Below are positions 6,757 through 53,183 of a stretch of DNA of 64,000 nucleotides, in pieces. The stretch lies in NCBI GenBank assembly GCA_016776505.1, contig JADHTG010000012.1, positions 223 through 64,222 on the forward strand, in the 5' to 3' direction. Numbering within the stretch: position 1 is the first letter of the stretch; each line of letters begins with the position of its first letter. The notes below the pieces were generated by a model, which did not search any database, had not been told where the DNA came from, and saw only the letters and a list, made by a program, of their open reading frames with translations. The translations under genes and the position numbers were made by a program. Origin of the DNA: Bacteroidota bacterium. Its GTDB lineage: Bacteria; Bacteroidota; Bacteroidia; CAILMK01; JAAYUY01.

Positions 6757-6760
6757 GGTG

Positions 6761-18882: not shown

Positions 18883-18883
18883 C

Positions 18884-19753: not shown

Positions 19754-19892
19754 TATTTTTTATTTAGGTTTTTAGAAAAGTTCCTTGTTTGTAAGATAAA
19801 TTGTAATTCAAATGACTGTTTTCAGAGAACATCATTCTTATTGGTTTTTTGAAATTGCTGTTTTTTTTGTAGGATTCGGACTTAAATACTGC

Positions 19893-19906
19893 ATGAAGTA
19901 TGTCAT
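19893..19906. promoter_or_regulatory. Inverted repeat ATGAA-GTAT-GTCAT (weaker member of the ATGAY-N4-RTCAT set)
   Basis: atgaagtatgtcat lies in the 175-bp gap upstream of the HybA-like gene. Confidence 0.3.
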
Positions 19907-19928
19907 TTTAAAATGAGTACCATTTGAT

Positions 19929-21614: not shown

Positions 21615-21669
21615 AATCACTAAATTTATCTTGTTAATTAAATTTTTCAGCTTTGATCAATTTTTGGAT

Positions 21670-22714: not shown

Positions 22715-22719
22715 CAGAC

Positions 22720-23939: not shown

Positions 23940-23965
23940 CTGGTTTGAATAAAATAATTATCAAA

Positions 23966-24970: not shown

Positions 24971-26307
24971 TAGTTTTGTCTTGATCTCATTAATTTTCCA
25001 ACCTGTGTTTTACCTAAACGAATATAATCCAGCAATGGTCTGTAAGATGGACATGTATACATACATGAACCACATTCAATACAATCCATGATCCTGTTTT
25101 TTTCACACCCACTATAGTCTTCATATTTCGCCAGTTGGGCAAGATAAAAAGGTTCGAGTCCCATGGGACAAACAGCAGTGCATTTTCCACATCGGATGCA
25201 ATTCACAGCGCGTGATCTTTTTGCTTCTTTGGCATTCATAATCAGTATCCCGGATGTTCCTTTTACTACGGGCACTTCTAAAGAATTAAGTGCTTTGCCC
25301 ATCATGGGACCACCGCTGATTACTTTACCCGTATCCTCTGGTAATCCACCTACTTTTTCAATCAATTGGGAAATGGGAGTACCTATTCTAACCTGGAAAT
25401 TTGCAGATTCCATTAATGATTTTCCTGCCACCGTTACAATTCTTTCAATCAGGGGTTTGTTTTTCTGAACAGCTTCGTAGACGGCAAAGGCAGTTCCCAC
25501 ATTGTTTACTACAGCACCTACTTCAATGGGCAGTTTTCCACTGGGAACTTCCCTGTTGATGCATGCCTTGATTAATTGTTTTTCACCTCCCTGGGGATAT
25601 TGTACCTTAAGGGCTTGTATGCTAATGCCGGGATAATCTGCAATTAGACTTGCTAAATGGTCAATTGCATCCATTTTATTGTTTTCAATGCCAATAATGG
25701 CCCTGTCAACACCTAATCCTTTCATTAATATTTGACACCCAACAAGCAACTCCTCCCCTCTTTCCAGCATTAAACGATGGTCAGAAGTGAGGTAGGGTTC
25801 ACACTCCACCCCATTGATCAGTAAAACTTCAGCCACTTTTCCCTTAGGAACCATCAGCTTTACATGAGAAGGAAAGGTAGCACCTCCCAGGCCCACTATG
25901 CCCGATGATTTGATCTTTTCGATGATATCAGATTGTGTCAGCTCTCTTATATTCCTGTTTAGTTCAGTGGATCTGTCGATACCATCTGTCCAATCATCTC
26001 CTTCCACCTCAATAAGAACCGCATTTCTGCGATAGCCGGAACTATCCGGCACTCCATCCACTTTAAGCACTTTTCCTGAAACGGAGGAATGAACCTGGGC
26101 AGAAATGAAAGCCTCACCCTTGCCAATCAACTGGCCGACTTGAACCTGATCTCCTCTCTTTACGATGGGGATGGAAGGTACACCAAGGACCTGGCCAAGA
26201 GGAATTGAAACCTGGGTAGGAATGGGCATCAGCTCAATTGCTTTTCCAGCTGAAATCTTATGTTCCGGTGGATGAATACCTCCTAATTTGAATGTTTTTA
26301 ATGTCAC
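24970..26307 (-). CDS. rnfC: Rnf complex subunit C
   Basis: SGIVGLGGATFPSHVK motif and two ferredoxin motifs, CIRCGKCTAVCP and CIECGSCMYTCP. Confidence 0.95.
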   Translation of the reverse strand: MTLKTFKLGGIHPPEHKISAGKAIELMPIPTQVSIPLGQVLGVPSIPIVKRGDQVQVGQLIGKGEAFISAQVHSSVSGKVLKVDGVPDSSGYRRNAVLIEVEGDDWTDGIDRSTELNRNIRELTQSDIIEKIKSSGIVGLGGATFPSHVKLMVPKGKVAEVLLINGVECEPYLTSDHRLMLERGEELLVGCQILMKGLGVDRAIIGIENNKMDAIDHLASLIADYPGISIQALKVQYPQGGEKQLIKACINREVPSGKLPIEVGAVVNNVGTAFAVYEAVQKNKPLIERIVTVAGKSLMESANFQVRIGTPISQLIEKVGGLPEDTGKVISGGPMMGKALNSLEVPVVKGTSGILIMNAKEAKRSRAVNCIRCGKCTAVCPMGLEPFYLAQLAKYEDYSGCEKNRIMDCIECGSCMYTCPSYRPLLDYIRLGKTQVGKLMRSRQN

Positions 26308-26318
26308 TTTATTTCTAA

Positions 26319-27299
26319 TTAAACCTGCTTATCAGTTTTAGCTTCTCCTTTCGACTCGCTCGAAGCATCCTTAACAGCGGTATCTGATTTTTCATCCTTT
26401 TTGGTCAAGGGATTTGCAGAATCAGGTTTTTCAGCAATTTTATCCGGTACTGTCTGCTCCTTGACAGCCGGTCTTTCTTTTCTTGGACGAAAATTCACTT
26501 CCCAAATAGTATTTGTTTCGCATTCAGGTGCACATTTTCTGCAAAGAGTACATTTATGTGGATCGATGTATGCCAGAAAATTTTCGATCTTAATCGCATC
26601 GAACTTACAGACTTTTTCACATTTGCGACAGGCTGTGCAGGTCACACTGCAATTGGCTTTTGCAGGTATTGCTTTTTCTTCATTCATACAGGCAACAAAA
26701 ATTCTCCTGTCTTTTTTACCCCTGGGTCTTAGCTCTAAAATATTTCTGGGACAAGCCTTTACACAAGCTCCGCACGCATTGCAATTATCCTTCACAACAG
26801 GCAGACCGGTTTGTTCGTCCATATACATTGCATCAAAGTCACAGGCTTCCACACAATCTCCACAGCCTAAGCAACCGTAAGCACATCCTCCTTCTCCGGA
26901 AAACAAGGCATTGGCCACAAAACAGGATTTTACTCCGTCATATTGTACTTTTTGAGGTGAATGTTCACAGCTTCCATTGCATCTTAATACAGCAATTTCA
27001 GGATCTTTCAGATCTGCTTCAAGTCCCAATGCCTGTCCAATATCAGTCATCAGATCAGCTCCACCTACTGGACAATTAAAGCCTTCCATATTTTCGGCCT
27101 TAACGATTTCCTCTGCAAAATTCCTACATCCCGCAAAGCCGCATCCCCCACAATTCGCGGCAGGAAGAACCTCTTCCACCTCATCTATGCGGGGATCTTC
27201 TATGACTTTGAATTTTTGGGCAACAAAAAAGAGGATTATTGCAGCAATTACTCCTATTGCACCTAGGGATATAACAGCATAAAGGATAATTTCGTTCAC
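26319..27299 (-). CDS. rnfB: Rnf complex subunit B (polyferredoxin) with K/E/D/S-rich C-terminal tail
   Basis: N-terminal anchor, CGGCGFAGC motif and several CxxCxxCxxxCP motifs. The last ~55 aa are low-complexity (..KEQTVPDKIAEKPDSANPLTKKDEKSDTAVKDASSESKGEAKTDKQV). Confidence 0.92.
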   Translation of the reverse strand: MNEIILYAVISLGAIGVIAAIILFFVAQKFKVIEDPRIDEVEEVLPAANCGGCGFAGCRNFAEEIVKAENMEGFNCPVGGADLMTDIGQALGLEADLKDPEIAVLRCNGSCEHSPQKVQYDGVKSCFVANALFSGEGGCAYGCLGCGDCVEACDFDAMYMDEQTGLPVVKDNCNACGACVKACPRNILELRPRGKKDRRIFVACMNEEKAIPAKANCSVTCTACRKCEKVCKFDAIKIENFLAYIDPHKCTLCRKCAPECETNTIWEVNFRPRKERPAVKEQTVPDKIAEKPDSANPLTKKDEKSDTAVKDASSESKGEAKTDKQV

Positions 27300-38284: not shown

Positions 38285-38704
38285 TCACTTTTTACTGGTA
38301 GGATTTGTCTTAAGTTTATTGTATAATGCATTTAATGCGGATGTTAAATCCACAAATGATACATTGTGGTTTTTGCAGGCTTTCCTGGAACAAATATTTA
38401 CTTTGCCCCCTATATCCAGTAAGAATTGCACCATAGGAGCTTCACAGATATCACAAGTTGTTTCAACAGACAGATTCTGCATACAATTCGGGCAATAAAA
38501 ACTTATAATATCCTGGTCTTTAACTGGGATATTCACCTGGTGATCATAGCAATCATAGACGGAGCATAAGAGCATAGTTCCATTCCTGCTATTGCCCACT
38601 ATATTCAAACGAATGCTTGGCTTACCATGCAGCAATTTATTTTTATCCATTAATGAATTTTTACATGCAGGACAGCAAACATTAAACGTAATTGATTTTG
38701 GCAT
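38285..38704 (-). CDS. Cys-rich zinc-ribbon-like protein of unknown function (paralog of 39854..40342)
   Basis: CCPAC..., CSVYDC, FYCPNC, CDIC and CSRKAC. It aligns with the 39854 product through shared blocks (CP..SL, I.L.I, FxCPxC, T.C.C, FLD). Confidence 0.65.
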   Translation of the reverse strand: MPKSITFNVCCPACKNSLMDKNKLLHGKPSIRLNIVGNSRNGTMLLCSVYDCYDHQVNIPVKDQDIISFYCPNCMQNLSVETTCDICEAPMVQFLLDIGGKVNICSRKACKNHNVSFVDLTSALNALYNKLKTNPTSKK

Positions 38705-39253: not shown

Positions 39254-39754
39254 TTATGCCGGAATTAACATGCATTTATCTGAAATGGATAAATGATGAA
39301 TCCAGGATTTCACCTGGTTTAGGTTTTCATCAAAGCTTTTACTGAGTTTAGGACTCAGTTTTGATCCAAAACTTAAGAAATCATCCACTTCAATAGAAAT
39401 AACAAATACATTTTCAGGAATTTGATATTCCAGTTTTTTCCAAAATGTAAAACAATCCCTAAAATTCATTTCATGAATATTCTTTAGGTGAAGGGTTTCC
39501 TGGAAATCAAATAAGCTATGAATGGAAATATGTCCGGGTGGATTCATGTTTTGATTCATTCCGTCAATAAAAACAACCGTTTTATAGCCTTTTATTGAGT
39601 CCAGAGTCACCAGGCTAAACAGGGACTCGGTCTTAAAACTAAGTTTTTGAAAATAAGGATCCGCGGAAAGTTTACTGACCATTTTGACACCAATGCCTTC
39701 ATCAGTATGGAAATCACTCCCCATGCCTACTATCAAAATGTTTTTCTGTTCCAA
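39254..39754 (-). CDS. Hydrogenase maturation endopeptidase-like protein (paralog of 40367..40855)
   Basis: ILIVGMGSDFHTDEGIGVKM, FIDGM and TLHLKNIHE occupy the positions of the Glu/Asp, Asp and His nickel ligands of HybD-type proteases. Confidence 0.7.
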   Translation of the reverse strand: MEQKNILIVGMGSDFHTDEGIGVKMVSKLSADPYFQKLSFKTESLFSLVTLDSIKGYKTVVFIDGMNQNMNPPGHISIHSLFDFQETLHLKNIHEMNFRDCFTFWKKLEYQIPENVFVISIEVDDFLSFGSKLSPKLSKSFDENLNQVKSWIHHLSISDKCMLIPA

Positions 39755-39853: not shown

Positions 39854-40342
39854 TCATCTTGTCTGAGCCATTTTAGTTGTTCTTGTTTTTGATGCGAAAA
39901 CCATATCCTCAATTATTTCCGCATTATTGCATCCATAGTTATCACAAAATCCAATACAATCGCAGAAGTTTGTTTCCTGGTCTAAAAAGAGTGCAACTAT
40001 ATCACCTCCACAGTAGCATTTTGTATACACGGGAATTTTTATATCACAGTGGGGACAAAAAAACCCAATAGAATCACCCTTTTCACAATTGGTACCTAAG
40101 AGGATACTTCTCTTATCATGAGATATTGGACTGATAGCAATAGTTCCCCAATCTGCCTGAGTTTCTATTTTCAGCACAATACCAGCAAATCCGCTAAAAT
40201 TTGCCTGTGAATTGACCAGGCTGTGACCATTTGGACAATAACAATCGGTTATGACCTGAATATTGTCGCTGGTACAAATTTGTTCTTTTCTAATTTTATT
40301 GGGATATTCAATCATCCCTTTTTTATTGAAAATACTTTTCAT
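39854..40342 (-). CDS. Cys-rich zinc-ribbon-like protein of unknown function (paralog of 38285..38704)
   Basis: CYCPNGHSL, FFCPHC, CYCGG and CDCIGFCDNYGC. It lies between two endopeptidase paralogs in the hydrogenase operon. Confidence 0.65.
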   Translation of the reverse strand: MKSIFNKKGMIEYPNKIRKEQICTSDNIQVITDCYCPNGHSLVNSQANFSGFAGIVLKIETQADWGTIAISPISHDKRSILLGTNCEKGDSIGFFCPHCDIKIPVYTKCYCGGDIVALFLDQETNFCDCIGFCDNYGCNNAEIIEDMVFASKTRTTKMAQTR

Positions 40343-40366: not shown

Positions 40367-40855
40367 TCAATGGCTTAATGCAGAGGATTTGGATTTTATC
40401 CAATCCAAAACAGTTTGAAAAATTTGATTGTATTTTCTTTGAATTTCCTCACTCATTGAATCACTAAAAACTGAAAATTCTTTAATCACTATTGAAATTA
40501 CATATATGTCATCTGGTATTTTAAATCCCAGTTTTTTCCAAAAATCCACCATATTAATAAATGATGTTTCATGTATATTGGACAAGTGTAATGTGTCTAT
40601 AAAATCAGACATATGGTTTATTGAAATCTCTCCTGTACTTTTAGTTTTACTTAAAGTGGCGTCAATAATGATAATCAATTCATAACTTTCAAACTCCTTA
40701 ACTAAGTCCAGATTGAATAAAAGTGCTGTTTTAAAATCACAATGATTAAGGAGGCTTTCTTGTTGAAGTTGATGAACTACTGTAGAACCAATTCCATCGT
40801 CCGTCAGTATATCACTACCCAGGCCAAAAATTAATACTTTATTCCTACTACACAA
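40367..40855 (-). CDS. Hydrogenase maturation endopeptidase-like protein
   Basis: VLIFGLGSDILTDDGIGSTV, IIDAT and TLHLSNIHE. It lies immediately downstream of the large-subunit gene. Confidence 0.72.
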   Translation of the reverse strand: MCSRNKVLIFGLGSDILTDDGIGSTVVHQLQQESLLNHCDFKTALLFNLDLVKEFESYELIIIIDATLSKTKSTGEISINHMSDFIDTLHLSNIHETSFINMVDFWKKLGFKIPDDIYVISIVIKEFSVFSDSMSEEIQRKYNQIFQTVLDWIKSKSSALSH

Positions 40856-40858: not shown

Positions 40859-42322
40859 TTATTTACGTTGAACTGTTCGCAATATTTTGCCTTCCAAATC
40901 CCTGAAGTTCACTTTCAAAGGCATTTTACCTGTTTGATAATGTGTAGCACATGAAAAACAAGGATCATATGCACGAAAAGCCATTTCGACCATATTCAGA
41001 ATTCCATCATTCACTTCCACTCCTTTCTTGATCAGGTTTTGGGCTGCTTTTTTCAAAGACATACATATGGCAGCGTTGTTATTGGTTGTTCCAACTATGA
41101 TATTGGCTTTAGTGACAATTCCTTTTTTATCTGTCCAGTAATGATGTGTGAGCGTTCCCCTTTGGGCTTCGACTATTCCAACACCTTCATTTGGGATATT
41201 TGTTAATGGTGTTCTTAGTTCTTTTCCTGTTATATCAGGGTCCTGTGCTAATTCGAGACAATGCTCAGCCGAATAAAGCAACTCTACCAGCCTGGCCCAA
41301 TGCATGGCCAATGTGGCATGAACAGGTTTTCCACCCAGCACTTCATACATTTTCTCATATTCAGCTTGTGCCAAAGGAGTGGCCATTCCATCTGAAGCAT
41401 TTAAGCGGGAAAGTGGTGTGGCATGATAAACACCTGAATCCTGTCCATCCACAAATCCCTTCCAACCAATTTTTTTCAGAAATGGAAACTTCAGATAAGT
41501 CCAGGGTTCAACATGCTCAGCAACGTAATTCATATAATCCTCAGGGCTGTATTTACAATGTTCTTCTCCTTTTGTATCCACAACCCTGACTTTTCCATCA
41601 TAAAAGTTGACTTTATTGTTCTGATCCACCAAACCCATAGAATAAATGTTCAGATTATAAGGACCATTTACAATCAAATCAACATAGCCTTCATTAGCTA
41701 AAACAACATCTTCAAATATTTTCAAACTGAATTTTGCGAATTCAATAAATCCCTTTGCTTTTTCCACAATATCATCTCGCTGTTCTTCAGTTAATCCTTT
41801 TCTAACCCCACCGGGTATATTCATCACGACATGAGTTTGATGGCCTCCCAGCAGGGCTTGTATTTCTTGCGCTAACCGTCTTTGTTTGATCACTTCAGTT
41901 CCCACTTCGACACCTACTTTATTAATAACTCCTAAAATATTTCTTTCAGCAGCCGGGGCAGTAGGACCCACTACAAAATCAGCAGCAGCTAAAGCATAAA
42001 AATGAGCGATATGACTATGAACATAATGAGCCATATAAAACAATTCACGTAGCTTTTTGGCAGTTGGAGTAGGCGTGACACCATATACAGCATCCGCTGC
42101 TTTTCCAGAAGCCATGTGATGGCAACCCGGACATACACCACAGATTTTGGTTACAATCTGCGCTAATTCCTCAACTGGTCTTCCTTCGCAGAATTTTTCA
42201 AAACCTCTTAATTCGGGCACCTGGAAATAAACATTTTCCACATCTCCCTCATCTGTCATGAATATTTCAATTTTACCATGACCTTCAAGCCTAGTAATCG
42301 GATCAATCGTTATTCTCTTCAT
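40859..42322 (-). CDS. mvhA: [NiFe]-hydrogenase large subunit, Mvh-type (group 3c-like by context)
   Basis: N-terminal RLEGHGKI, proximal motif CGVCPGCH and C-terminal DPCFSCATH followed by a 26-aa extension that would be cleaved. The group assignment rests on the adjacent mvhG, mvhD and hdrA genes. Confidence 0.88.
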   Translation of the reverse strand: MKRITIDPITRLEGHGKIEIFMTDEGDVENVYFQVPELRGFEKFCEGRPVEELAQIVTKICGVCPGCHHMASGKAADAVYGVTPTPTAKKLRELFYMAHYVHSHIAHFYALAAADFVVGPTAPAAERNILGVINKVGVEVGTEVIKQRRLAQEIQALLGGHQTHVVMNIPGGVRKGLTEEQRDDIVEKAKGFIEFAKFSLKIFEDVVLANEGYVDLIVNGPYNLNIYSMGLVDQNNKVNFYDGKVRVVDTKGEEHCKYSPEDYMNYVAEHVEPWTYLKFPFLKKIGWKGFVDGQDSGVYHATPLSRLNASDGMATPLAQAEYEKMYEVLGGKPVHATLAMHWARLVELLYSAEHCLELAQDPDITGKELRTPLTNIPNEGVGIVEAQRGTLTHHYWTDKKGIVTKANIIVGTTNNNAAICMSLKKAAQNLIKKGVEVNDGILNMVEMAFRAYDPCFSCATHYQTGKMPLKVNFRDLEGKILRTVQRK

Positions 42323-43299
42323 AATACTTTCCTTCTTAAAATTGAATTAGGTAAGCTGAATCTATAAAATAAACCTGCAGGATCATCAATTGTGTCAACA
42401 GTAGCATTGATCTCAGATTCATTATTTCCTTTAATGATAGTACCCACTGCCGAAAGCATTTTTGAACCTGGATCAGGAATATCATCTGGTGGACCATAGC
42501 ATCCACGACAAGGAGCATTTCCCTCTATGCATCTGACATCACATCCACCTCTTGTAGCGGGACCCATACAAATCACTCCCTGTTCCAGGAAACAGCTTTC
42601 CCCATCGTCAACAATGTCAATGGGTCGTTTAAATTCTGAAATACTTTTATCCTCAGTCTGCTTTCTTTCACATTCATCACACTGGGTTTTATTCAATGCA
42701 CCGATGACTGATCCTGCAGGAGGCAATTCAGCACCGGTAACAATTGCAAGAAACACTTCCACCAGGCGTTCCGTTTGAGGAGGACAACCGGGAAGGTAAT
42801 AATCCACATTGACAACCTGATCCAGTGTTCTCACATCGTTATAAAATACCGGTATATCCAGTATTCCTTCTTTTACTTCAAATTCAGGAACAGGACGAAT
42901 TTTATCAGGATTTATCGTTGATTCACTTTCTTCGTAAACGCGACTGAATATTTCTTCTTTTGATGAAAAATTTGCAAGCCCAGGAATACCACCCATATGG
43001 GCACAACTACCATAAGCTACCAAAACTTTGGTTTTTTTCCGAAGTAGTTTGGCCATTTCTTCATTTTCACTGTTTCGAACTGCACCATTAAAAAGAGTGA
43101 GATCGATATGACCATCAGGCATAGCTTTCACATCTTTGTACTTAATATCAAGCGCTATTGGCCAAAAAACAAGATCAGCATGCTCTAGCACTGTAAAAAG
43201 TTTTTCATGTACATCAAGGACTGAAACACAACAACCCCCGCATGCTGCTCCCCAATAAACAGCTAATTTCAATTTTGGTTTTGCTTCCGTTTTTGCCAT
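42319..43299 (-). CDS. mvhG: [NiFe]-hydrogenase small subunit, Mvh-type
   Basis: No TAT signal. N-terminal WGAACGGCCVS and C-terminal FeS cysteines (CDEC..., CMGPATRGGCDVRCIEGNAPCRGCYGP). An ATGA overlap with mvhA. Confidence 0.85.
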   Translation of the reverse strand: MAKTEAKPKLKLAVYWGAACGGCCVSVLDVHEKLFTVLEHADLVFWPIALDIKYKDVKAMPDGHIDLTLFNGAVRNSENEEMAKLLRKKTKVLVAYGSCAHMGGIPGLANFSSKEEIFSRVYEESESTINPDKIRPVPEFEVKEGILDIPVFYNDVRTLDQVVNVDYYLPGCPPQTERLVEVFLAIVTGAELPPAGSVIGALNKTQCDECERKQTEDKSISEFKRPIDIVDDGESCFLEQGVICMGPATRGGCDVRCIEGNAPCRGCYGPPDDIPDPGSKMLSAVGTIIKGNNESEINATVDTIDDPAGLFYRFSLPNSILRRKVL

Positions 43300-43310
43300 T
43301 TGTTTAATTA

Positions 43311-43736
43311 TTAGGATAAGGTTTCAACTATTTCTTTTACTTTACAAGGGCCAAACTCCCTGATCTCTTCTGTAAATTGATCCACAAGTTTGGCAAAATC
43401 TTTCCCTTCACTGGCACTGATCCACTTCAACTTCATCCTGTCTTTTTCAATTCCCATCTGATCAATAAACTTTTGCATGAGCTTAAATCTTCTCAGGCAA
43501 TTGTAATTTCCTTCATGGTAATGACAATCACCGGGATGACAACCACAAATTAATACACCATCAGCTCCTTGTTGGAAGGCTTTCAAAACAAAGGTGGGTT
43601 CCACCCTTCCGGAACACATCACTCTGATTATGCGAATATTCGAAGCGTATTTCATCCTGGATGTCCCTGCCAGGTCAGCTCCCGTGTAAGAACACCAGTT
43701 ACATAAAAACGAGACAATTTTAGGATTAAAACTCAT
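43311..43736 (-). CDS. mvhD: Methyl-viologen-reducing hydrogenase delta subunit (MvhD) family protein
   Basis: IVSFLCNWCSYTGADLAG and VMCSGRV are hallmark MvhD motifs. 141 aa. Confidence 0.87.
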   Translation of the reverse strand: MSFNPKIVSFLCNWCSYTGADLAGTSRMKYASNIRIIRVMCSGRVEPTFVLKAFQQGADGVLICGCHPGDCHYHEGNYNCLRRFKLMQKFIDQMGIEKDRMKLKWISASEGKDFAKLVDQFTEEIREFGPCKVKEIVETLS

Positions 43737-43772
43737 AGTATTTTCCTCCAGTGTTTAAAAATTTTATTTCTT

Positions 43773-45521
43773 TTAGTTTTCTGATATTTCTTCTTGAAGA
43801 ATCATCTCCATTAGTCCTTCTATCTGCGATAGTATTTGTTTATCAGTAAAATGCCTGCTACTAATAGCTCCGCATGGACAGGCAGAACCGCATGTTCCAC
43901 ATCCTTTACAAAGTGCTTCATTAACAACAGAGATATTTTTTTCCTCCTCATAGCTAAGGGCAGTGTAAGGACATACCTGTACACAAGTCTGACATCCGCA
44001 GCACAGTTCTTCATTGGCAAAAGCGGTTGTCACTTCGATTTCTACCTGTTTTTTATTAATGGTTCCCAGTATTCTTGCAGCTGCAGCTTTGGCCTGACAT
44101 ATGGAATCCGGGATATCTTTTGGTCCCTGGCAATTTCCAACAATGTATACCCCATCTGTAGTGGTGGCTACAGGGTCTAATTTGGGATGTTTTTCAATGT
44201 AGAAACTATTTCCACAAAGGCTAATACCCACTGAGTGTCCTGTTTTCTTTGCGTCTTCATGGGCTTCCATACCCACCATCAGCACTATTAAATCAGCAGG
44301 AATTTCCACTTCTTCCCCGGATAGTTTTTCATCCATTTGAATAAGCATCTCACAACCATCATTTTTACCTGCCTTAATTACCTCGGGTAATTTGTCCTGT
44401 TGGTCAAACATGAGAAAGGTAACTCCTTTTGTAGAGGTTTTTGTGTACAACTCTTCGCAACCTTTTCCAAATGAGCGCATATCAGCATATAATTCGTACA
44501 CATTTGAATCCGGGATAGCTGATTTAAGCTGGTTGGCAAATTTTAATGCTGTCATACAGCAGGTGCGACTGCAATACTCATGGTAATCTTTATTCCGGCT
44601 ACCCACACAATGTATGATGGCGATATTTTTTGGAACCTTTCCCTCTTTCGTTTGAATCTTTCCCTTCAAAAGCATTTTCTCAAATTCAAGGGAAGTAATT
44701 ACATTCGGAAATTTACCGTAAGCATAGGCTTCAATACCCTGTGGATCGAAAGCTTTTAAACCCGTTGCAACAATAACATTTCCAAATTTCAGCTCAGTTT
44801 CTTTCTTTTTACCATTTTTTATTTGTGTACTGAAATTTCCAATGTATCCATTCACCTCTTCAACTACCTGATTATTAAAAACCTGGATATTGGGGTGCTG
44901 AACGACTTTTTCAATGATCATTTGTCTAAGCTGTTGTGCACTGTACATGAAAGGAAAGGTAAGGTCAACCTGCAACAGCTGACCACCGAGCTGGGCCTTT
45001 TTTTCAACCAGGTAAACCTGTTTTCCTGCATCAGCAATTTCAAGCGCTGCAGACATACCTGCTATTCCACCTCCCAAAATCAAGGTAGCAGGATCAATTT
45101 CAACTGTCCGCTTTTCAAGTGCTTCATGATAAGCTACCCGACTAATGGCTCCGGCAATTAATGATTTGGCTTTTTTAGTTGCCTCCTCCCTGTCAGTATG
45201 AACCCATGAAACTTGTTCCCGGATATTGGCCATTTGAAACATATAAGGATTCAGGCCTGCATTTGCCAGCGCCCTTCTGAAGGTTAGTTCATGTATCCTG
45301 GGTGAACAGGCAGCAACAACCACACGGTTCAGATTGTTTTCCTGGATATCCTGGATGATCATATCCTGACCCGGGTCTGAACACATATATTTATAAGTTT
45401 TAGACAGAACCACATTCGGCAGATCACCCAATTCTTTTGCAACCTGCTCGACATCTACCATCTTGGCGATATTGGTACCGCACCAGCAAACATATAAACC
45501 TATTCTTGTATCTTCCATCAT
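43773..45521 (-). CDS. hdrA: Heterodisulfide reductase subunit A-like flavoprotein (HdrA1; N-terminal Cys domain and C-terminal 2x ferredoxin)
   Basis: N-terminal VCWCGTNI, FAD motif ILGGGIAGMSAALE, HdrA signature HCVGSRNKDYHEYCSRTCCM, and C-terminal CCGCQTCVQVCP and CKGCGTCGSACP. It lacks the inserted ferredoxin domain. Confidence 0.88.
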   Translation of the reverse strand: MMEDTRIGLYVCWCGTNIAKMVDVEQVAKELGDLPNVVLSKTYKYMCSDPGQDMIIQDIQENNLNRVVVAACSPRIHELTFRRALANAGLNPYMFQMANIREQVSWVHTDREEATKKAKSLIAGAISRVAYHEALEKRTVEIDPATLILGGGIAGMSAALEIADAGKQVYLVEKKAQLGGQLLQVDLTFPFMYSAQQLRQMIIEKVVQHPNIQVFNNQVVEEVNGYIGNFSTQIKNGKKKETELKFGNVIVATGLKAFDPQGIEAYAYGKFPNVITSLEFEKMLLKGKIQTKEGKVPKNIAIIHCVGSRNKDYHEYCSRTCCMTALKFANQLKSAIPDSNVYELYADMRSFGKGCEELYTKTSTKGVTFLMFDQQDKLPEVIKAGKNDGCEMLIQMDEKLSGEEVEIPADLIVLMVGMEAHEDAKKTGHSVGISLCGNSFYIEKHPKLDPVATTTDGVYIVGNCQGPKDIPDSICQAKAAAARILGTINKKQVEIEVTTAFANEELCCGCQTCVQVCPYTALSYEEEKNISVVNEALCKGCGTCGSACPCGAISSRHFTDKQILSQIEGLMEMILQEEISEN

Positions 45522-45539
45522 ATAAAGTTTATTCGATTA

Positions 45540-46604
45540 TTATTTCATTAAAGCAGCTTGTTTGAGATTTGAAAAATAGATGGCAAAAGCACGATAAAGG
45601 AAATGCGTCCATTTCCCAAATGGGACTATTAATAATCCCCATTGAGCAATTACTATCAGGTGAATAAAATACACCCAGAGATTATTCTCAATAGCTCCGG
45701 CATCAACCAGAATACGAGTAATAAATGCAGTTAATCCAAGTAAAAATAACCAGACTACAAACATCCAATCGCTGGGGTGTGAAAACTTTGAAGATTCTCT
45801 TTTTTTGCTGGATCTTTTCAATACAAAATCAAAGGTAAATATAAATACAAGAGCCCCTACAATATAGCCTATCCACTTTACAGTTTCTGAATCTGTATTA
45901 AACCAATTGAAGAATACAGTTATCACAAGCAATCCCAAATAGCCTATAACTATCAATAAATGTTCTACCCAGCGGAATGTATCTCCTTCACATTTTAGGT
46001 AATTCTTTTGTGTGAATAGGTTGACAAATAAACTTAGGCTATTGCTTATATACGCAAAAACAGGTACTTTGAGTTTATTCTTCAGAATGACAAACCAAAA
46101 CATTCTCAAAAGGTTTGGAAGAAGGATCAAACAGGCAACCGCATAAATCACATATTTTTCAAATTTATGTCCGAACTCCATCATGGCTTCGGCTTTGAAG
46201 TCCTTCGTGATTCCAATCACTATTATTCCAATGGCTACAACGATCATCGCGATGAGGAATGCTGGTAAAGACTTATAGAATAACCTGGCAATTCCAGTCC
46301 AATCATATTTAATGGTGAGCCATCTGCGAAATGACATCATTAGTTCACCAGGATTTGCTTCACGAGGACATGTTTCAGAACATTCTCCACAATAATAGCA
46401 TAACCATGGATCCACATCAGTGACTAGTTTATTTTTAAATCCAAGCTGAACGTTGCGGATGATTCTTCGTGGAAACAGTATGTTTTCTTCTGTCAGTGAA
46501 CAGACAGCTGTGCAGTTCCCACAATGAAAACAGTCCTGCCAATCTTCTTTGACGCCAAATCGATTCAGGTCTAATTTCAAATCAGGATTAACTCGGTATC
46601 TCAT
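45540..46604 (-). CDS. FeS-plus-membrane subunit (QmoC/HdrE-NarI-like): 2x[4Fe-4S]-type N-domain fused to a polytopic domain
   Basis: CFHCGNCTAVCS and CYYCGECSETCP motifs, followed by about 6 TM helices with conserved His (WVEHLL, FIHLIV, KWTHFL). Confidence 0.65.
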   Translation of the reverse strand: MRYRVNPDLKLDLNRFGVKEDWQDCFHCGNCTAVCSLTEENILFPRRIIRNVQLGFKNKLVTDVDPWLCYYCGECSETCPREANPGELMMSFRRWLTIKYDWTGIARLFYKSLPAFLIAMIVVAIGIIVIGITKDFKAEAMMEFGHKFEKYVIYAVACLILLPNLLRMFWFVILKNKLKVPVFAYISNSLSLFVNLFTQKNYLKCEGDTFRWVEHLLIVIGYLGLLVITVFFNWFNTDSETVKWIGYIVGALVFIFTFDFVLKRSSKKRESSKFSHPSDWMFVVWLFLLGLTAFITRILVDAGAIENNLWVYFIHLIVIAQWGLLIVPFGKWTHFLYRAFAIYFSNLKQAALMK

Positions 46605-46606
46605 AA

Positions 46607-48403
46607 TTATTTCTTCATTAATTGATTAATGCTTGTTTCAACATCAGTAAGTTTTATATCTTTAATACTTTTCTGTATTTTCCCTTTGATGATGCTTTGT
46701 AAAACCCTGGCTGCTGCTGCAGAAGCCTGTGCAACAGTATCAGGAATGTCTTTGGGTCCCTGGCATAATCCAGCAATCGAAATACCTCCTGTTGAAGTAT
46801 TAACCGGGTTGCTGTTATAATTGACTTCATTGTACCATCCTTCCTTTGAAGATGGAATACCCAGCATATTTGCCAGCTCATTTGAATTTTCAGCTGCCTC
46901 AAGACCAATTGCCAGAACCACCATATCCACTTCCTGCTCAATGATTTTTTCATTCAGTATATCTTCGCTTCTCAGCTCCAGCTTTTGATCCTTTTCTTTA
47001 ATGCTTGCTGTTCTACCACGGATCATATGCACATTTTCCTGTTTTATTCTTTCATAAAACTCTTCATATCCCTTTCCGAATGCCCGCATATCGATGAAAT
47101 ATTCAAACACATCTGCTTCCGGAATTTTTTCTTTGATCAGGTGTGCCAGTTTCAAAGAATACATGCAACACACTTTTGAACAATACTTGTTGTAATTTTC
47201 ATCCCTACTCCCAATGCAATGGATCACAGCAATTTTAGAAGGTGTTCCTGAACCATCTTTAAAAATCCAATTTCCCTTTTTATCCTGGCTGCGGAAAGTG
47301 ATATTTCCACCAGTGGGTCCCGAAGCATTGATCAACCTTTCAAACTCAAGTGAGGTCAGTACATTTGGAAATTTCCCGTAACCAAATCTTTCAATCCTTT
47401 TAGCATCAAAAGGTTTGAAGCCAGAGGCTACGATGATATTTCCTACTGTAATTTCAACATCTGTATCTTTTTCATCCAGATCAATACAATCCGGAACAGG
47501 ACAAAGTTTCACACAAACCTTGCACTTCCCGTTTTCAAAATAGGTGCAATTTGCTTCATCAACCAGGTATTTGTTGGGTACGGCTTGTGGAAATGGAATG
47601 TAAATAGCCTTTCTCATGGCAATGCCTGCATCAAATTCACTTGGAGCAACTCTCGGACACTTCTCTGAACAAATACCGCAACCAATGCAAGTTGCCAAAT
47701 TCACTTTGCGCGCCTTCTTATGGATTGTGACCTTATAATCACCCGGCACTCCGCTAATGGATTTCAACTCCGCATAGGTGATCAATTCAATGTTGGAATG
47801 CTGGCCCACATCCACCATTTTTGGTGTCAGTATGCATGCAGCACAATCCAGTGTGGGAAAGGTTTTATCAAACATGGCCATATGCCCACCGATGGTCCCT
47901 GTCTTTTCAAGAAGAAAAACTTTCTGGCCTCCGTTGGCTATCTCCAGGGATGCCTGAATTCCTGCAATTCCGCCGCCTATTACCAAAGTATCTGGATGTA
48001 CATCCACTTCATCAGGAACCAGCACTTTTCTAATATCGACTCCTTTAATGGCACATAAAAGGACCACTTTTGCCATTTCAGTGCTTTGGCCATTTAAGTA
48101 GGCATGTTCAACAAATGAAGCGAGTTCAATATTTTCAGCTTTTTTACCAGCAAGGCTCATGGCACTTACGAAAAGGTTTTTAATTTCACCCGGAAAATCA
48201 CCCGCAAGAATCATCTTATCAGGATTCACTTCTTTTATTTGTTCATTAATTTTTTCAGGTGATTTTAAATCCAATTCTGTTGTATTCCAAATCTTTGTAA
48301 CCTGGGGTAAGCCGGATGCATAATCGTATAACTCCTTGAAATTGAAGTAGTCTGAAAACCCTTGTCCCGAATCATAAAAACAAATTCCAATTTTATCTCC
48401 CAT
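46607..48403 (-). CDS. HdrA/QmoA-like flavoprotein (HdrA2; inserted ferredoxin domain, degenerate N-domain, no C-terminal ferredoxin)
   Basis: FAD motif VIGGGIAGIQASLE, TLDCAACIL, inserted CIGCGICSEKCP...CKVCVKLCP and HdrA signature HCIGSRDENYNKYCSKVCCM. I prefer the ATG at 48403; the ORF track uses a TTG at 48427. Confidence 0.82.
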   Translation of the reverse strand: MGDKIGICFYDSGQGFSDYFNFKELYDYASGLPQVTKIWNTTELDLKSPEKINEQIKEVNPDKMILAGDFPGEIKNLFVSAMSLAGKKAENIELASFVEHAYLNGQSTEMAKVVLLCAIKGVDIRKVLVPDEVDVHPDTLVIGGGIAGIQASLEIANGGQKVFLLEKTGTIGGHMAMFDKTFPTLDCAACILTPKMVDVGQHSNIELITYAELKSISGVPGDYKVTIHKKARKVNLATCIGCGICSEKCPRVAPSEFDAGIAMRKAIYIPFPQAVPNKYLVDEANCTYFENGKCKVCVKLCPVPDCIDLDEKDTDVEITVGNIIVASGFKPFDAKRIERFGYGKFPNVLTSLEFERLINASGPTGGNITFRSQDKKGNWIFKDGSGTPSKIAVIHCIGSRDENYNKYCSKVCCMYSLKLAHLIKEKIPEADVFEYFIDMRAFGKGYEEFYERIKQENVHMIRGRTASIKEKDQKLELRSEDILNEKIIEQEVDMVVLAIGLEAAENSNELANMLGIPSSKEGWYNEVNYNSNPVNTSTGGISIAGLCQGPKDIPDTVAQASAAAARVLQSIIKGKIQKSIKDIKLTDVETSINQLMKK

Positions 48404-48584
48404 AGAATTTAATTTTTGGTATTTCAAATTGATAATAACCTATTTTGAAAGTGTAAGAACGAATTATATAAATTGAATTGAAAGCTAGCAACAAATCCAT
48501 TTGCAGATTAAATAGTTGTTTTTTTTTTGTGCTAATATTACTAAGCCCCATATTGATTTAAAATGACATCCATCAGTTAGTAAT

Positions 48585-48598
48585 ATGATAAATATCAT
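48585..48598. promoter_or_regulatory. Palindrome ATGAT-AAAT-ATCAT upstream of the hdrA2-mvh operon
   Basis: tatgataaatatcata has 6-bp arms TATGAT/ATCATA. It lies between the Crp/Fnr stop (48653) and the operon start. Confidence 0.45.
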
Positions 48599-48652
48599 AA
48601 AACGAAACATGTGATCCGGCAATAAATACTTTGAGGTTTTTTAGGGCAGGAA

Positions 48653-49363
48653 TTATTCAAGCAATTCAGCTACTTCCAATAAGCCTTTTAAATCAGTGAT
48701 AGTTATTGTTCTCCCTTTAACTGAAATGAGTCCTTCATTTTTTAATTCCCCCAGTACACGGATGACCGTTTCAGTTGCAGAGCCTACTGTATTGGCCAGT
48801 TCATCTCTTGTTAACCTGATTTGATAGCCTTTTTGAGCATCCTCTGTTACATACGTATTATTAATAATGATAAGAGATTCTGCAACTCTTTGTCTGACTG
48901 TTTTTAAGGCAATGGACGTCATCTTGCTCTCCGCTTCAAAAAGCATCCTGCTGAGGGAAACGAGCATATAATTTGTCATATTGGGGTATTTCATTATCAG
49001 CTCAAAAATTTTCCGGTTATTGATAAAGCAAACAATAGAATCTTCAATGGCAGCACTGGTAGCTGAATATTTAGTTCTTTCTATCATGGCCTTTATTCCG
49101 AAAAGTTGGCCTGGAGCGACAAATCTTATGATATACTCTCTTCCATCCAATCCATCTTTATAAAGCTTAACTTTTCCTTTATGCAGACAGTATACTCCAT
49201 TAGGATTAGCCCCTTCGTAAAAAATAATCTGATTTTTTTTAAAAAATGTACAACTTTTTTCTATGCTTAAATCCCGCAGATCTTCATGGGATAGAATATT
49301 AAAGTAAGTTTTAAATCTTACCTCACATTCTTCACAGGTCGGTTTTGAAAATCTTGTTCTCAT
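48653..49363 (-). CDS. Crp/Fnr-family transcriptional regulator with N-terminal CxxC
   Basis: N-terminal CEEC, a cNMP-binding-like domain and an HTH (TRDELANTVGSATETVIRVLGEL). Confidence 0.9.
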   Translation of the reverse strand: MRTRFSKPTCEECEVRFKTYFNILSHEDLRDLSIEKSCTFFKKNQIIFYEGANPNGVYCLHKGKVKLYKDGLDGREYIIRFVAPGQLFGIKAMIERTKYSATSAAIEDSIVCFINNRKIFELIMKYPNMTNYMLVSLSRMLFEAESKMTSIALKTVRQRVAESLIIINNTYVTEDAQKGYQIRLTRDELANTVGSATETVIRVLGELKNEGLISVKGRTITITDLKGLLEVAELLE

Positions 49364-52447: not shown

Positions 52448-52559
52448 GATCAAATCAATCTTTTTTATCTATCTGATACCTAAATATCTGTATTATTAAA
52501 TTTTGTATTAATTTGCATTTTAATAATTGCTGTTAAATTATTATCAATGCACAATTAAA

Positions 52560-53183
52560 ATGAAAAATCTTCTTCCAGAAAAAACTGTTGAACGCTTAAG
52601 CCAGTGTCGCAGGGTATTGTTGAACAAATTGGATCAGGAAAAGGAATTTATTTTTTCACACGAAATTGCCAAACTACTTCACCTGACACCAGTTCAGGTT
52701 CGCAGGGATTTTATGTTGATGGGTTATACCGGGAGCCCAAGCAAAGGCTATAACATCAAAAAATTAATTAAAGCAATTGGCTATACTATTGATCCGGATG
52801 AAAGCCAGAATGCAGCGGTCATTGGGATGGGAAACCTGGGCAAAGCTATTTCGAAATATGTTGAAGATAAACGGGAGTTTTTGAAAATTGTCGCCAATTT
52901 TGATGTGGATGAAAAAAAAATAAGCAAGAGTGTTGCAGGAATTAAATGTCATCATATAAAAGATCTATCAAAGGTTATAAGGGATTTGGACATTACTATC
53001 GCGATCATTACTGTTCCAGCTAATGATGCATACGATGTGAAGGAATTACTTGTGGGCAATGGAATAAAGGGAATATTAAACTTCACCCCTGCTCCCCTTC
53101 ATGTTCCTGATCATATTTATCTGGAGGAATTTGACATCATCACCTCCCTTGAAAAAGTAGCCTATTTTGTAAAGGAAAAATAA
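52560..53183 (+). CDS. rex: Redox-sensing transcriptional repressor Rex
   Basis: Winged-helix N-domain (VRRDFMLMG), Rossmann GMGNLGKA and GIKGILNFTPAPLHVP, closely matching B. subtilis Rex blocks. I prefer the ATG at 52560 over the TTG at 52527. Confidence 0.92.
   Translation: MKNLLPEKTVERLSQCRRVLLNKLDQEKEFIFSHEIAKLLHLTPVQVRRDFMLMGYTGSPSKGYNIKKLIKAIGYTIDPDESQNAAVIGMGNLGKAISKYVEDKREFLKIVANFDVDEKKISKSVAGIKCHHIKDLSKVIRDLDITIAIITVPANDAYDVKELLVGNGIKGILNFTPAPLHVPDHIYLEEFDIITSLEKVAYFVKEK

What the first reader, a model, noticed from the sequence alone, without database searches (positions are those of the whole stretch)
40859..48427. Mvh-type [NiFe] hydrogenase operon with two complementary HdrA paralogs and a QmoC-like FeS/membrane subunit, but no HdrB/HdrC
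Seen in sequence: minus-strand order is hdrA2 (46607..48403), an FeS-plus-6TM protein (45540..46604), hdrA1 (43773..45521), mvhD, mvhG and mvhA, followed by endopeptidase and Cys-rich genes. Both HdrA proteins carry the signature HC[VI]GSR...YCS..CCM.

Their accessory domains are split. HdrA1 keeps the N-terminal Cys motif (VCWCGTNI) and the C-terminal double ferredoxin, but lacks the inserted ferredoxin domain and the DCxxC motif. HdrA2 keeps TLDCAACIL and the inserted ferredoxin (CIGCGICSEKCP...CKVCVKLCP), but has a degenerate N-domain (ICFYDSGQGF) and no C-terminal ferredoxin. No CCG-domain (HdrB) or HdrC-only protein is encoded anywhere in the window.

Established knowledge: MvhADG-HdrABC is a soluble flavin-based electron-bifurcating complex in methanogens. 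QmoABC of sulfate reducers consists of two HdrA-like flavoproteins plus QmoC, an HdrC-like FeS domain fused to an HdrE-like cytochrome b membrane domain.

Inference: this looks like a hybrid in which a Qmo-like HdrA heterodimer plus membrane subunit is wired to an Mvh hydrogenase. It could be an H2-linked bifurcating or confurcating complex that uses the quinone pool instead of a heterodisulfide. rnfBCDGEA (ferredoxin:NAD+), rex and a full hyp set lie in the same island, which fits a ferredoxin/NADH/H2 balancing role. I cannot name a characterised complex with this composition.
Basis: partly seen in the sequence, partly recalled or inferred. Interest (0 to 1): 0.75.

Follow-up and report, generated by a model that had tools for sequence, protein, structure and literature searches.

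The report
Membrane-anchored Qmo-like hydrogenase operon
A conserved six-gene operon of anaerobic Bacteroidales joins a methanogen-type cytoplasmic [NiFe] hydrogenase to a Qmo-like flavoprotein pair and a haem-b membrane subunit instead of HdrBC, so it probably links H2 to the menaquinone pool (and ferredoxin), a coupling that has not been characterised.

Summary
On the minus strand, 40859-48427 encodes an A-type HdrA, an HdrC+NarI-fold membrane protein, a B-type HdrA, MvhD, MvhG and MvhA, followed by a maturation protease. No CCG/HdrB protein occurs in the 64 kb window or beside any syntenic locus.

This is not a one-off. The same gene order recurs in at least 12 further loci, including Prolixibacteraceae, Marinifilaceae and Draconibacterium. 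More than 120 protein clusters have a large subunit at least 83% identical.

The two HdrAs and the membrane subunit belong to a large Bacteroidales Qmo-like family, found in at least 590 species. All three proteins split the same way into a hydrogenase-linked clade and a hydrogenase-less sister clade. In some sister loci the A-type subunit carries a GltD-type NAD(P)H module.

The split of HdrA accessory domains between the two paralogs is conserved in every locus checked. Both HdrAs keep the Glu/Lys pair linked to flavin bifurcation. The membrane subunit keeps eight FeS cysteines and three invariant histidines.

Best reading, inferred and not shown: one membrane-bound complex coupling H2 to menaquinone and a low-potential carrier. 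I found no paper describing it. I rate it a new variant of known kinds (Mvh-Hdr, QmoABC).

The parts
46607..48427 (-). A-type (QmoA-like) HdrA flavoprotein, 'HdrA2'. It has FAD-binding GxGxxG, DCAAC, an inserted 2x[4Fe-4S] ferredoxin domain and HCIGSR...YCSKVCCM. The N-domain is degenerate and there is no C-terminal ferredoxin domain. The likely true start is the ATG at 48403.
   Evidence: The Glu and Lys equivalent to 5odc E356 and K409 are retained (residues as named in PMC12054007).
45540..46604 (-). QmoC-like membrane subunit. The N-terminal part is an HdrC-like 2x[4Fe-4S] domain (C25/28/31/35 and C69/72/75/79). It is followed by six TM helices of NarI fold carrying His146, His215, His315 and His334.
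   Evidence: qmoC NF038018 154.7 bits, full length, cut-off 300; pLDDT 84.8.
43773..45521 (-). B-type (QmoB-like) HdrA flavoprotein, 'HdrA1'. It has the N-terminal [4Fe-4S] domain (CWCG), FAD, HCVGSR...YCSRTCCM and a C-terminal 2x[4Fe-4S] ferredoxin domain. It has no DCxxC and no inserted ferredoxin domain.
43311..43736 (-). MvhD ([2Fe-2S] FlpD family), the connector between hydrogenase and HdrA. It is a separate gene here, whereas in canonical QmoB it is fused.
   Evidence: (PF02662, 189.6 bits).
42319..43299 (-). MvhG, the [NiFe]-hydrogenase small subunit.
   Evidence: VhuG model, 212 bits.
40859..42322 (-). MvhA, the group-3c-type [NiFe]-hydrogenase large subunit. Motifs are CGVCPGCH (N-terminal) and DPCFSCATH (C-terminal), followed by a 26-aa tail for cleavage.
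   Evidence: (best PDB hits MvhA/VhuA, 387-389 bits).
40367..40855 (-). Hydrogenase maturation endopeptidase, conserved directly downstream of mvhA.
39854..40342 (-). Conserved Cys-rich all-beta protein of unknown function with 7 invariant Cys. It is present after the peptidase in the window, L001, L085, L088 and L089.
   Evidence: No family or fold match.
48653..49363 (-). Crp/Fnr-family regulator immediately upstream on the same strand. It is also present in L002, L003, L088 and L089.
   Evidence: An ATGAT-N4-ATCAT palindrome lies between it and hdrA2; this is weak evidence.

Best explanation
The six genes most likely encode one membrane-anchored complex. MvhA/MvhG oxidise or evolve H2 in the cytoplasm. 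MvhD passes electrons to a heterodimer of two complementary HdrA flavoproteins: the B-type HdrA1 carries the N-terminal cluster and C-terminal ferredoxin domain that dock MvhD in methanogen enzymes, and the A-type HdrA2 carries the inserted ferredoxin domain. The place of HdrC/HdrB is taken by a QmoC-like subunit. Its HdrC-like FeS domain leads into a haem-b NarI-fold membrane domain that exchanges electrons with menaquinone.

The proposed reaction is flavin-based bifurcation, 2 H2 + MK + 2 Fd(ox) -> MKH2 + 2 Fd(red) + 2 H+. At very low H2 it could run in reverse as a confurcation. Menaquinone (about -70 mV) would play the part of the heterodisulfide.

Shown here: the composition, the cofactor motifs, the folds, the conserved synteny and the family relationships. 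Inferred: that the six proteins form one complex, that quinone is the substrate, that ferredoxin is the third partner, and the direction of the reaction.
For: - Tight spacing. The genes are tightly packed, with a 4-bp overlap up to a 36-bp gap between neighbours (coordinates). The Qmo-like and Mvh genes are interleaved in the order A-C-B-D-G-A.
- Conserved order. The order is the same in at least 12 loci from several Bacteroidales families, although the membrane subunit diverges to 37-44% identity.
- Shared history. A-type HdrA, B-type HdrA and the QmoC-like protein each split into the same hydrogenase-linked and hydrogenase-less clades, so the three have evolved together.
- Conserved domain complementarity. 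It was seen in every type-1 and type-2 locus checked.
- Bifurcation residues. Both HdrAs keep the Glu/Lys pair associated with bifurcation (PMC12054007).
- Membrane subunit. All 8 FeS cysteines are invariant. The fold is HdrC plus NarI. Topology is N-in with 6 TM. His215 and His334 lie on the cytoplasmic side and His146 and His315 on the outer side.
- No HdrB. No CCG/HdrB gene was found anywhere nearby.
- Modular input. Sister loci replace the hydrogenase with a GltD-type NAD(P)H module inserted in the A-type subunit. This suggests a constant Qmo-like core with exchangeable electron-input modules.
- Precedents. Ramos et al. proposed a hydrogenase as a possible partner of Qmo through the MvhD-like domain of QmoB (PMC3333476). 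Fix/EtfABCX shows that quinone can be the high-potential acceptor of a flavin bifurcation (PMC6085437).
- Quinone context. The window also encodes other quinone-type modules (NrfD, cytochrome b561), implying a quinone pool.
Against: - There are no biochemical data at all.
- The membrane subunit scores below NCBI's qmoC cut-off, and none of the ten diverse relatives tested reaches it either.
- Only three histidines are invariant. The fourth, His146, is absent in L090 and shifted in L088, so two bis-His haems are not assured.
- The hydrogenase-less sister loci carry DsrE2-like and GcvH-like genes. These hint at a thiol or persulfide substrate for the family, which could be encoded elsewhere in this genome.
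- The complete genome could not be searched for hdrB/hdrD.
- No multimer model could be made, so the heterodimer and the electron-transfer distances are untested.
- Rex and Rnf proximity is loose: no strong Rex operator lies upstream here.
Confidence: 0.5

Rival explanations
1. Confurcating reductase for an unidentified thiol/persulfide acceptor. As proposed for QmoABC-AprAB, electrons from H2 (through Mvh) and from menaquinol (through the QmoC-like subunit) would converge on the HdrA flavins. They would then reduce a third, soluble substrate encoded elsewhere, such as a DsrE2/TusA-type persulfide carrier, a lipoyl (GcvH-like) protein or a DsrC-like disulfide.
For: - Hydrogenase-less sister loci almost always carry DsrE2-like genes, and sometimes GcvH fusions, next to the Qmo-like genes.
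- The window itself has two GcvH-domain proteins in an NrfCD-like cluster about 22 kb away.
- Ramos et al. argued for this logic in Qmo (PMC3333476).
Against: - None of the loci with the hydrogenase has a DsrE2, GcvH, TusA, DsrC, Apr or CCG gene in or next to the operon.
- H2 alone is already a strong enough reductant for such acceptors, so adding menaquinol would bring no energetic gain.
Confidence: 0.17
2. Simple, non-bifurcating cytoplasmic H2:menaquinone oxidoreductase (or a menaquinol-driven H2 valve). The HdrA flavins would act only as two-electron/one-electron converters and wires, with no ferredoxin involved.
For: - The hydrogenase, the FeS chain and the haem-b quinone module are all present.
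- No ferredoxin gene lies in the operon.
Against: - Two large flavoproteins, each keeping the E356/K409 equivalents, plus two free ferredoxin-type domains, are far more than a wire needs.
- Group 1 and group 4 hydrogenases reach quinone or membrane modules without HdrA.
- About 340 mV would be wasted.
Confidence: 0.14
3. Two separate enzymes that only share an operon: a soluble HdrA1-MvhDGA hydrogenase (as inferred for hdrA-mvhDGA clusters of Desulfobacterota) and a separate HdrA2/QmoC-like membrane enzyme.
For: hdrA-mvhDGA units without hdrBC exist in sulfate reducers (PMC2702500; PMC3333476).
Against: - The gene order is interleaved: the qmoC-like gene sits between the two hdrA genes.
- In the sister clade, the A-type, B-type and C subunits occur together without any hydrogenase.
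- The accessory domains are complementary, so neither HdrA alone has the full set.
- The three subunits have congruent phylogenies.
Confidence: 0.09

Closest known systems
MvhADG-HdrABC (F420-non-reducing [NiFe] hydrogenase:heterodisulfide reductase of methanogens; PDB 5odc, 8rvu, 9sw2)
   Same: - MvhA, MvhG and MvhD are present and are the best solved-structure matches.
- The HdrA core is 430-515 bits to solved HdrA, with FAD, the HCxGSR...CxxxCCM cluster motif and the E356/K409 equivalents.
- An HdrC-like two-cluster domain is present.
   Different: - There is no HdrB (CCG, non-cubane clusters), so no heterodisulfide site.
- The HdrC-like domain is fused to a six-helix NarI-fold membrane domain.
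- Instead of a homodimer of full-length HdrA there are two paralogs, each lacking different accessory domains.
- The host is bacterial (Bacteroidales).
[quoted passage not shown]
   Same: - Two HdrA-like flavoproteins plus a subunit that fuses an HdrC-like FeS domain to a haem-b membrane domain.
- qmoC is the best-matching NCBIfam family, over the full length.
- An MvhD module is associated with the B-type subunit.
- 'Type II' Qmo proteins closer to HdrA, found in organisms without Dsr/Apr, are reported with unknown function.
   Different: - The score is below the qmoC equivalog cut-off (154.7 against 300).
- MvhD is a separate gene.
- No sat/aprAB is linked; no ORF in the window is of AprA size and unannotated.
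- A complete MvhGA hydrogenase is in the operon.
- The gene order is A-C-B, not A-B-C.
FixABCX / EtfABCX (NADH:quinone/ferredoxin bifurcating flavoprotein)
   Same: This is only a functional precedent. It is a flavin-based bifurcation that uses quinone as the high-potential acceptor and ferredoxin or flavodoxin as the low-potential one (PMC6085437).
   Different: The proteins are unrelated (Etf fold, no HdrA). The donor is NADH, not H2. There is no haem-b subunit.
hdrA-mvhDGA clusters without hdrBC in Desulfobacterota (e.g. Desulfobacterium autotrophicum)
   Same: The Mvh hydrogenase is linked to HdrA with no adjacent hdrBC.
   Different: Those clusters have a single HdrA and no QmoC-like membrane subunit. 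Their acceptor is likewise unknown.

Membership tests
Group 3c [NiFe] hydrogenase (MvhADG) | Large subunit with N-terminal CxxC...H and C-terminal DPCxxCxxH NiFe ligands and a cleavable tail | tested here: met
   CGVCPGCH at residue 61 and DPCFSCATH at 453, followed by a 26-aa tail. PF00374 match.
Group 3c [NiFe] hydrogenase (MvhADG) | Closest relatives are MvhA/VhuA rather than other group 3 or group 1 enzymes | tested here: inconclusive
   Best PDB hits are MvhA/VhuA at 387-389 bits. The NiFe-HydABCSL large subunit (7t2r_D) scores 380, group 3d scores 311 and group 3b about 90. The VhuA model scores 374, below its equivalog cut-off of 800. No reference phylogeny or HydDB classification could be run.
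Group 3c [NiFe] hydrogenase (MvhADG) | MvhD (FlpD, [2Fe-2S]) and MvhG encoded with the large subunit and linked to HdrA | tested here: met
   PF02662 at 189.6 bits. The VhuG model scores 212 bits. hdrA1 lies directly upstream.
HdrABC heterodisulfide reductase | HdrA with FAD and the bifurcation-associated Glu356/Lys409 | tested here: met
   Both paralogs align LEFE(R/K) and CCM(Y/T)(S/A)LK to 5odc E356/K409. The residues are named in PMC12054007.
HdrABC heterodisulfide reductase | HdrB with two CCG domains (non-cubane [4Fe-4S] catalytic site) | tested here: not met
   No CCG-domain candidate in six frames of the 64 kb window. None in the flanks of the syntenic loci. The rest of the genome could not be searched.
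HdrABC heterodisulfide reductase | Soluble HdrC | tested here: not met
   The only HdrC-like domain (residues 20-100) is fused to six TM helices.
HdrABC heterodisulfide reductase | Full-length HdrA (N-domain, inserted Fd, C-terminal Fd) forming a homodimer | tested here: not met
   The domains are distributed over two paralogs. The oligomeric state itself cannot be tested here.
QmoABC | Two HdrA-like flavoproteins (A and B), with B associated with an MvhD module | tested here: met
   The A-type/B-type split is conserved and phylogenetically old. MvhD is encoded separately, directly after the B-type gene. In canonical QmoB it is fused (PMC3333476).
QmoABC | QmoC: an HdrC-like 2x[4Fe-4S] domain fused to a di-haem cytochrome b membrane domain | tested here: inconclusive
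   The architecture, the eight cysteines, the NarI fold and three invariant histidines are met. The fourth histidine is variable. Haem binding cannot be tested.
QmoABC | Orthology to curated QmoC (NCBIfam NF038018, cut-off 300 bits) | tested here: not met
   154.7 bits for the window protein. Ten diverse relatives score 141-261 bits.
QmoABC | Genomic or functional link to Sat/AprAB (dissimilatory APS reduction) | tested here: not met
   No apr/sat gene is in the operon or in the syntenic flanks. Every window ORF of 400 aa or more is annotated as something else.
QmoABC | Haems b reducible by menaquinol analogues | not testable with these tools
   This needs spectroscopy on membranes or purified protein.

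The most novel reading that the evidence does not exclude
Anaerobic Bacteroidales possess a previously uncharacterised class of membrane-bound, flavin-based electron-bifurcating enzyme: an H2:menaquinone/ferredoxin oxidoreductase built from MvhAGD and a Qmo-like HdrA heterodimer with a QmoC-like subunit. It would be one member of a modular family whose constant quinone-linked core accepts electrons from exchangeable inputs: H2 through Mvh here, and NAD(P)H through a GltD insertion in the sister clade. If true, it would be a direct genomic realisation of the long-standing proposal that Qmo-type complexes work with a hydrogenase partner. It would also add menaquinone to the acceptors of HdrA-based bifurcation.
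Probability: 0.4. Interest if true: 0.8.

Novelty: new variant of a known kind. Interest (0 to 1): 0.62.

Why it matters
How Qmo-type complexes are energised, and what docks on the MvhD-like module of QmoB, has been open since 2003-2012. Here the partner, a complete hydrogenase, is written into the operon, so the question becomes directly testable.

If the proposed reaction is right, it extends HdrA-based electron bifurcation from thiol disulfides to the quinone pool. It would also give abundant sediment and gut-related Bacteroidales a way to make reduced ferredoxin from H2 while feeding fumarate or other anaerobic respiration. In reverse, it would let them vent reductant as H2 at low H2 pressure.

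The finding also warns against annotating every bacterial 'group 3c' hydrogenase as heterodisulfide-linked.

Tried and rejected
- Canonical QmoA/B/C sequences could not be fetched. No PDB entry matched beyond HdrC. The best 150 of the 50%-identity representatives did not include a sequence passing the qmoC cut-off among the ten tested. Placement against true Qmo therefore rests on the NCBIfam score and on the literature.
- A search for a Rex operator (TTGTGAAN4TTCACAA, up to 3 mismatches) gave 9 hits against 9.2 expected by chance, and none lies upstream of the operon. Weak Rex-like sites occur only in L007 and L008.
- The sigma-70 promoter and terminator scan gave no more sites than chance. 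Bacteroidales promoters are not covered by that scan anyway.
- For the Cys-rich operon protein, Pfam and NCBIfam gave no match. A PDB profile search gave only zinc-ribbon noise. AF2 gave pLDDT 77.7 and Foldseek gave no credible match. The homologue search returned only 10 hits.
- Nine literature searches found no description of this composition.
- I considered and rejected a chance juxtaposition of genes (conserved synteny) and a canonical Mvh-Hdr with hdrBC just outside the unit (absent in all flanks).
- A multimer structure prediction was not possible with the tools.

Full report
**1. Observation**

The minus strand of 38.3-49.4 kb carries, in this order:
- a Crp/Fnr regulator (48653-49363)
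- hdrA2 (46607-48427; the probable start is the ATG at 48403, as in the gene calls)
- a 354-aa FeS/membrane protein (45540-46604)
- hdrA1 (43773-45521)
- mvhD (43311-43736)
- mvhG (42319-43299)
- mvhA (40859-42322)
- a maturation endopeptidase (40367-40855)
- a Cys-rich ORF (39854-40342)
- a second endopeptidase (39254-39754)

Neighbouring genes from hdrA2 to the first Cys-rich ORF range from a 4-bp overlap to a 36-bp gap. A simple scan found no more terminator-like sites than chance.

Pfam and NCBIfam confirm every assignment:
- FlpD/MvhD at 189.6 bits
- Oxidored_q6/VhuG
- NiFeSe_Hases/VhuA
- both flavoproteins matching the HdrA/HdrA2 models at E-values of 1e-160 to 1e-172
- the membrane protein matching qmoC (NF038018) over its whole length at 154.7 bits, below the curated cut-off of 300

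A six-frame scan found no CCG-domain candidate in the 64 kb. rnfBCDGEA (22142-27299) and rex (52527-53183) are confirmed. Homologues of the window's hyp genes sit beside the operon in other loci.

**2. Anatomy of the two HdrAs**

I checked the domain split by alignment to solved HdrA (8rvu, 5odc).

| Feature | HdrA1 | HdrA2 |
|---|---|---|
| N-terminal cluster domain | kept (CWCG...C...C) | four cysteines lost |
| DCxxC | absent (FPFMYSAQQL instead) | kept (DCAAC) |
| Inserted ferredoxin domain (HdrA ~244-320) | missing | kept, both four-Cys motifs |
| C-terminal double ferredoxin | kept | absent; protein stops before it |
| HCxGSR...CxxxCCM motif | kept | kept |
| Glu and Lys equivalent to E356/K409 | kept | kept |

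E356 and K409 are the residues PMC12054007 links to flavin-based bifurcation.

In current methanogen structures, the N-terminal domain, the C-terminal ferredoxin domain and MvhD form a mobile input arm. The Cys/Sec of the DCxxC motif lies between the clusters and FAD (PMC13518236). So HdrA1 carries the parts that dock MvhD, and HdrA2 carries the inserted-ferredoxin route. A heterodimer would hold exactly one copy of each accessory module. This last point is inference.

**3. The membrane subunit**

Residues 20-100 align to HdrC of solved Hdr complexes. They carry two invariant CxxCxxCxxxC motifs.

An AlphaFold2 model (pLDDT 84.8) gives six long helices. Foldseek matches NarI of nitrate reductase for the membrane part (probability 0.99-1.0) and HdrC for the N-terminal part. 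E-values are weak (~0.15).

Hydropathy and the positive-inside rule give an N-in, C-in topology with six TM helices. This places His215 and His334 at the cytoplasmic side and His146 and His315 at the outer side. That is the geometry of a two-haem transmembrane wire (inference).

In 92 diverse relatives, His215, His315 and His334 are invariant or nearly so (92, 90 and 91 of 92). The fourth histidine moves between neighbouring columns. It is missing at that site in L090 and shifted in L088. The di-haem claim is therefore plausible but not secure.

**4. Recurrence**

The membrane subunit has more than 3000 homologues (E <= 1e-5) among the 8000 candidates scored in the 5.8-billion-sequence set, mostly from Bacteroidales MAGs. 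It has 1681 representatives at 50% clustering, and relatives in at least 590 GTDB species.

A tblastn survey of 80 loci shows two arrangements.

- Type 1 has the window's order, hdrA2, qmoC-like, hdrA1, mvhD, mvhG, mvhA, peptidase. It occurs in L001-L008.
- Type 1 also occurs in L085 and L086, in a Draconibacterium MAG (L088), in Prolixibacteraceae metagenome contigs (L089, 23 contigs) and in a Marinifilaceae MAG (L090).
- Across type-1 loci the five soluble subunits stay 60-85% identical, while the membrane subunit falls to 37-44%.
- More than 120 90%-identity clusters hold a large subunit at least 83% identical to the window's, all that carry a name being from Bacteroidota or unclassified bacteria.
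- Type 2 occurs in about 70 of the 80 loci, for example Ancylomarina longa and Paludibacter. It has Crp/Fnr, a DsrE2-like gene, an MvhD-like gene, A-type HdrA, B-type HdrA, a small ORF and the QmoC-like gene. It has no hydrogenase.
- In the Paludibacter-type variant, the A-type subunit carries an inserted GltD-like NAD(P)H/FAD module.
- In L087, receiver-domain fusions to MvhD and to a GcvH domain occur.

No locus of either type has an HdrB/CCG gene.

**5. Relationships**

Neighbour-joining trees of the QmoC-like proteins and of the HdrA core give the same picture. A-type and B-type HdrA separated before the type-1/type-2 split. All three subunits then split congruently into type 1 and type 2. 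The complementary domain pattern (A: DCxxC plus inserted Fd and no N-cluster; B: N-cluster plus C-terminal Fd and no DCxxC) holds in every locus inspected.

So the window's unit is a Qmo-like ABC core with MvhDGA attached, and not a degraded Mvh-Hdr.

Neither the window protein nor ten diverse relatives reach the qmoC equivalog threshold. This fits the 'type II Qmo' proteins that PMC10504309 describes as closer to HdrA, present in organisms without Dsr/Apr, and of unknown function.

**6. Mechanism**

The best-supported reading is a single membrane-anchored complex in which H2 (E0' -414 mV) is coupled to menaquinone (about -70 mV, PMC5861303) through the HdrA flavins and the QmoC-like subunit. 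The two spare ferredoxin-type domains would serve a low-potential partner such as ferredoxin.

The mean acceptor potential is about -285 mV, so bifurcation from H2 is exergonic, in the same way as Mvh-Hdr with heterodisulfide. At H2 below roughly 10 Pa the reverse confurcation becomes feasible (my calculation from standard potentials).

Two precedents support this. Ramos et al. suggested a hydrogenase as a possible third partner of Qmo (PMC3333476). Fix/EtfABCX bifurcates to quinone (PMC6085437).

The GltD-inserted sister enzyme suggests that input modules are exchangeable on a constant quinone-linked core.

All of this is inference. Composition, motifs, folds, synteny and phylogeny are what is shown.

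**7. Rivals**

(a) A confurcating reductase for a thiol or persulfide carrier encoded elsewhere. It is favoured by the DsrE2/GcvH genes of type-2 loci and by the GcvH-NrfCD cluster in the window. It is weakened because no such gene lies near any type-1 operon.

(b) A plain H2:menaquinone oxidoreductase. It is weakened by the two bifurcation-competent flavoproteins.

(c) Two separate enzymes. It is weakened by the interleaved gene order, the complementary domains and the congruent trees.

**8. Regulation and context**

A Crp/Fnr gene directly precedes the operon here and in L002, L003, L088 and L089. ATGAT-N4-ATCAT palindromes lie between it and hdrA2 in the window, L002 and L003. This is weak evidence because the DNA is AT-rich.

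Rex-family genes flank the operon in L001, L005, L007, L008 and L085. No convincing Rex box lies upstream in the window.

**9. Novelty**

Nine full-text searches found no description of a Qmo-like/Mvh operon or of Qmo-like complexes in Bacteroidales. The library lacks many subscription papers, notably Appel et al. 2021 on HdrA modules, so a prior mention cannot be excluded.

I class the finding as a new variant of known kinds. All parts are known modules. What is uncharacterised is the combination and the implied substrate change.

Noticed in passing
window 16922-21620 (-), with regulators at 12061-16715: This operon-like cluster encodes a 563-aa protein with a C-terminal GcvH (lipoyl-carrier) domain, a TAT-signal 4Fe-4S protein (NrfC/PsrB-like), an NrfD-like membrane protein and a second GcvH-domain protein (238 aa). 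Two histidine kinases and a sigma-54 response regulator follow. Combining an NrfCD quinone module with GcvH-like proteins is unusual. A receiver+GcvH fusion also sits next to the type-2 Qmo-like operon in L087.
   Followed up: partly
L010-L080, e.g. L027:2845-10050 (Ancylomarina longa), L033:1547-10041 (Paludibacter), L087:2697-10059: A hydrogenase-less Qmo-like operon is widespread in Bacteroidales. It runs Crp/Fnr, DsrE2-like, MvhD-like, A-type HdrA, B-type HdrA, small ORF, QmoC-like. In the Paludibacter type, the A-type subunit (about 920-950 aa) has an inserted GltD-like NAD(P)H module. These organisms are not known sulfate reducers, and the function is unknown.
   Followed up: partly
window 39854-40342 (-) and 38285-38704 (-); L001:15276-15698, L085:15500-15976, L088:12304-12783, L089:12020-12469: A small all-beta protein with seven invariant cysteines is conserved directly after the hydrogenase endopeptidase, and a distant paralog lies next to hypA. 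It has no Pfam, NCBIfam, PDB-sequence or Foldseek match. It may be a new maturation factor or a small redox partner.
   Followed up: yes
window 40367-40855 (-) and 39254-39754 (-): There are two paralogous hydrogenase maturation endopeptidases (36% identical), although only one hydrogenase is encoded in the window. A second [NiFe] hydrogenase may lie elsewhere in the genome.
   Followed up: partly
window 631-8637 (-): A respiratory or extracellular-electron-transfer-like cluster: multihaem cytochromes c, an NrfD-like protein, a 4Fe-4S protein, cytochrome b561, a mono-haem cytochrome c and a DUF5777 membrane beta-barrel. It points to a quinone-based respiratory capacity in this Bacteroidales genome.
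   Followed up: partly
window ~48585-48600 (intergenic, upstream of hdrA2); L002 and L003 upstream regions: The palindrome ATGATATTTATCAT (ATGAT-N4-ATCAT, like an FNR/CRP half-site pair) lies between the Crp/Fnr gene and hdrA2. Similar sites occur in L003 (ATGATAAATATCAT) and L002. The regions are AT-rich, so chance is not excluded.
   Followed up: partly
L088:5404-6597, L090:5569-6759 compared with window 45540-46604: In type-1 operons of Draconibacterium and Marinifilaceae, the membrane subunit is only 37-42% identical to the window's and has a ~30-residue insertion after TM1. The other five subunits are 60-85% identical. The membrane subunit therefore evolves much faster or has been exchanged. 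His146 is not conserved there.
   Followed up: partly
window 45540-46604, residue Cys205 (cytoplasmic loop between TM2 and TM3): This extra cysteine is conserved in 84 of 92 diverse QmoC-like proteins and lies outside the two ferredoxin motifs. Its role is unknown.
   Followed up: no
L085:16195-19086: In one type-1 locus, the operon is followed by rex and then by NuoF-like (HydB-type) and NuoG/HydA-like genes. This looks like a probable NADH-linked bifurcating [FeFe] hydrogenase or formate dehydrogenase module next to the [NiFe] unit.
   Followed up: no
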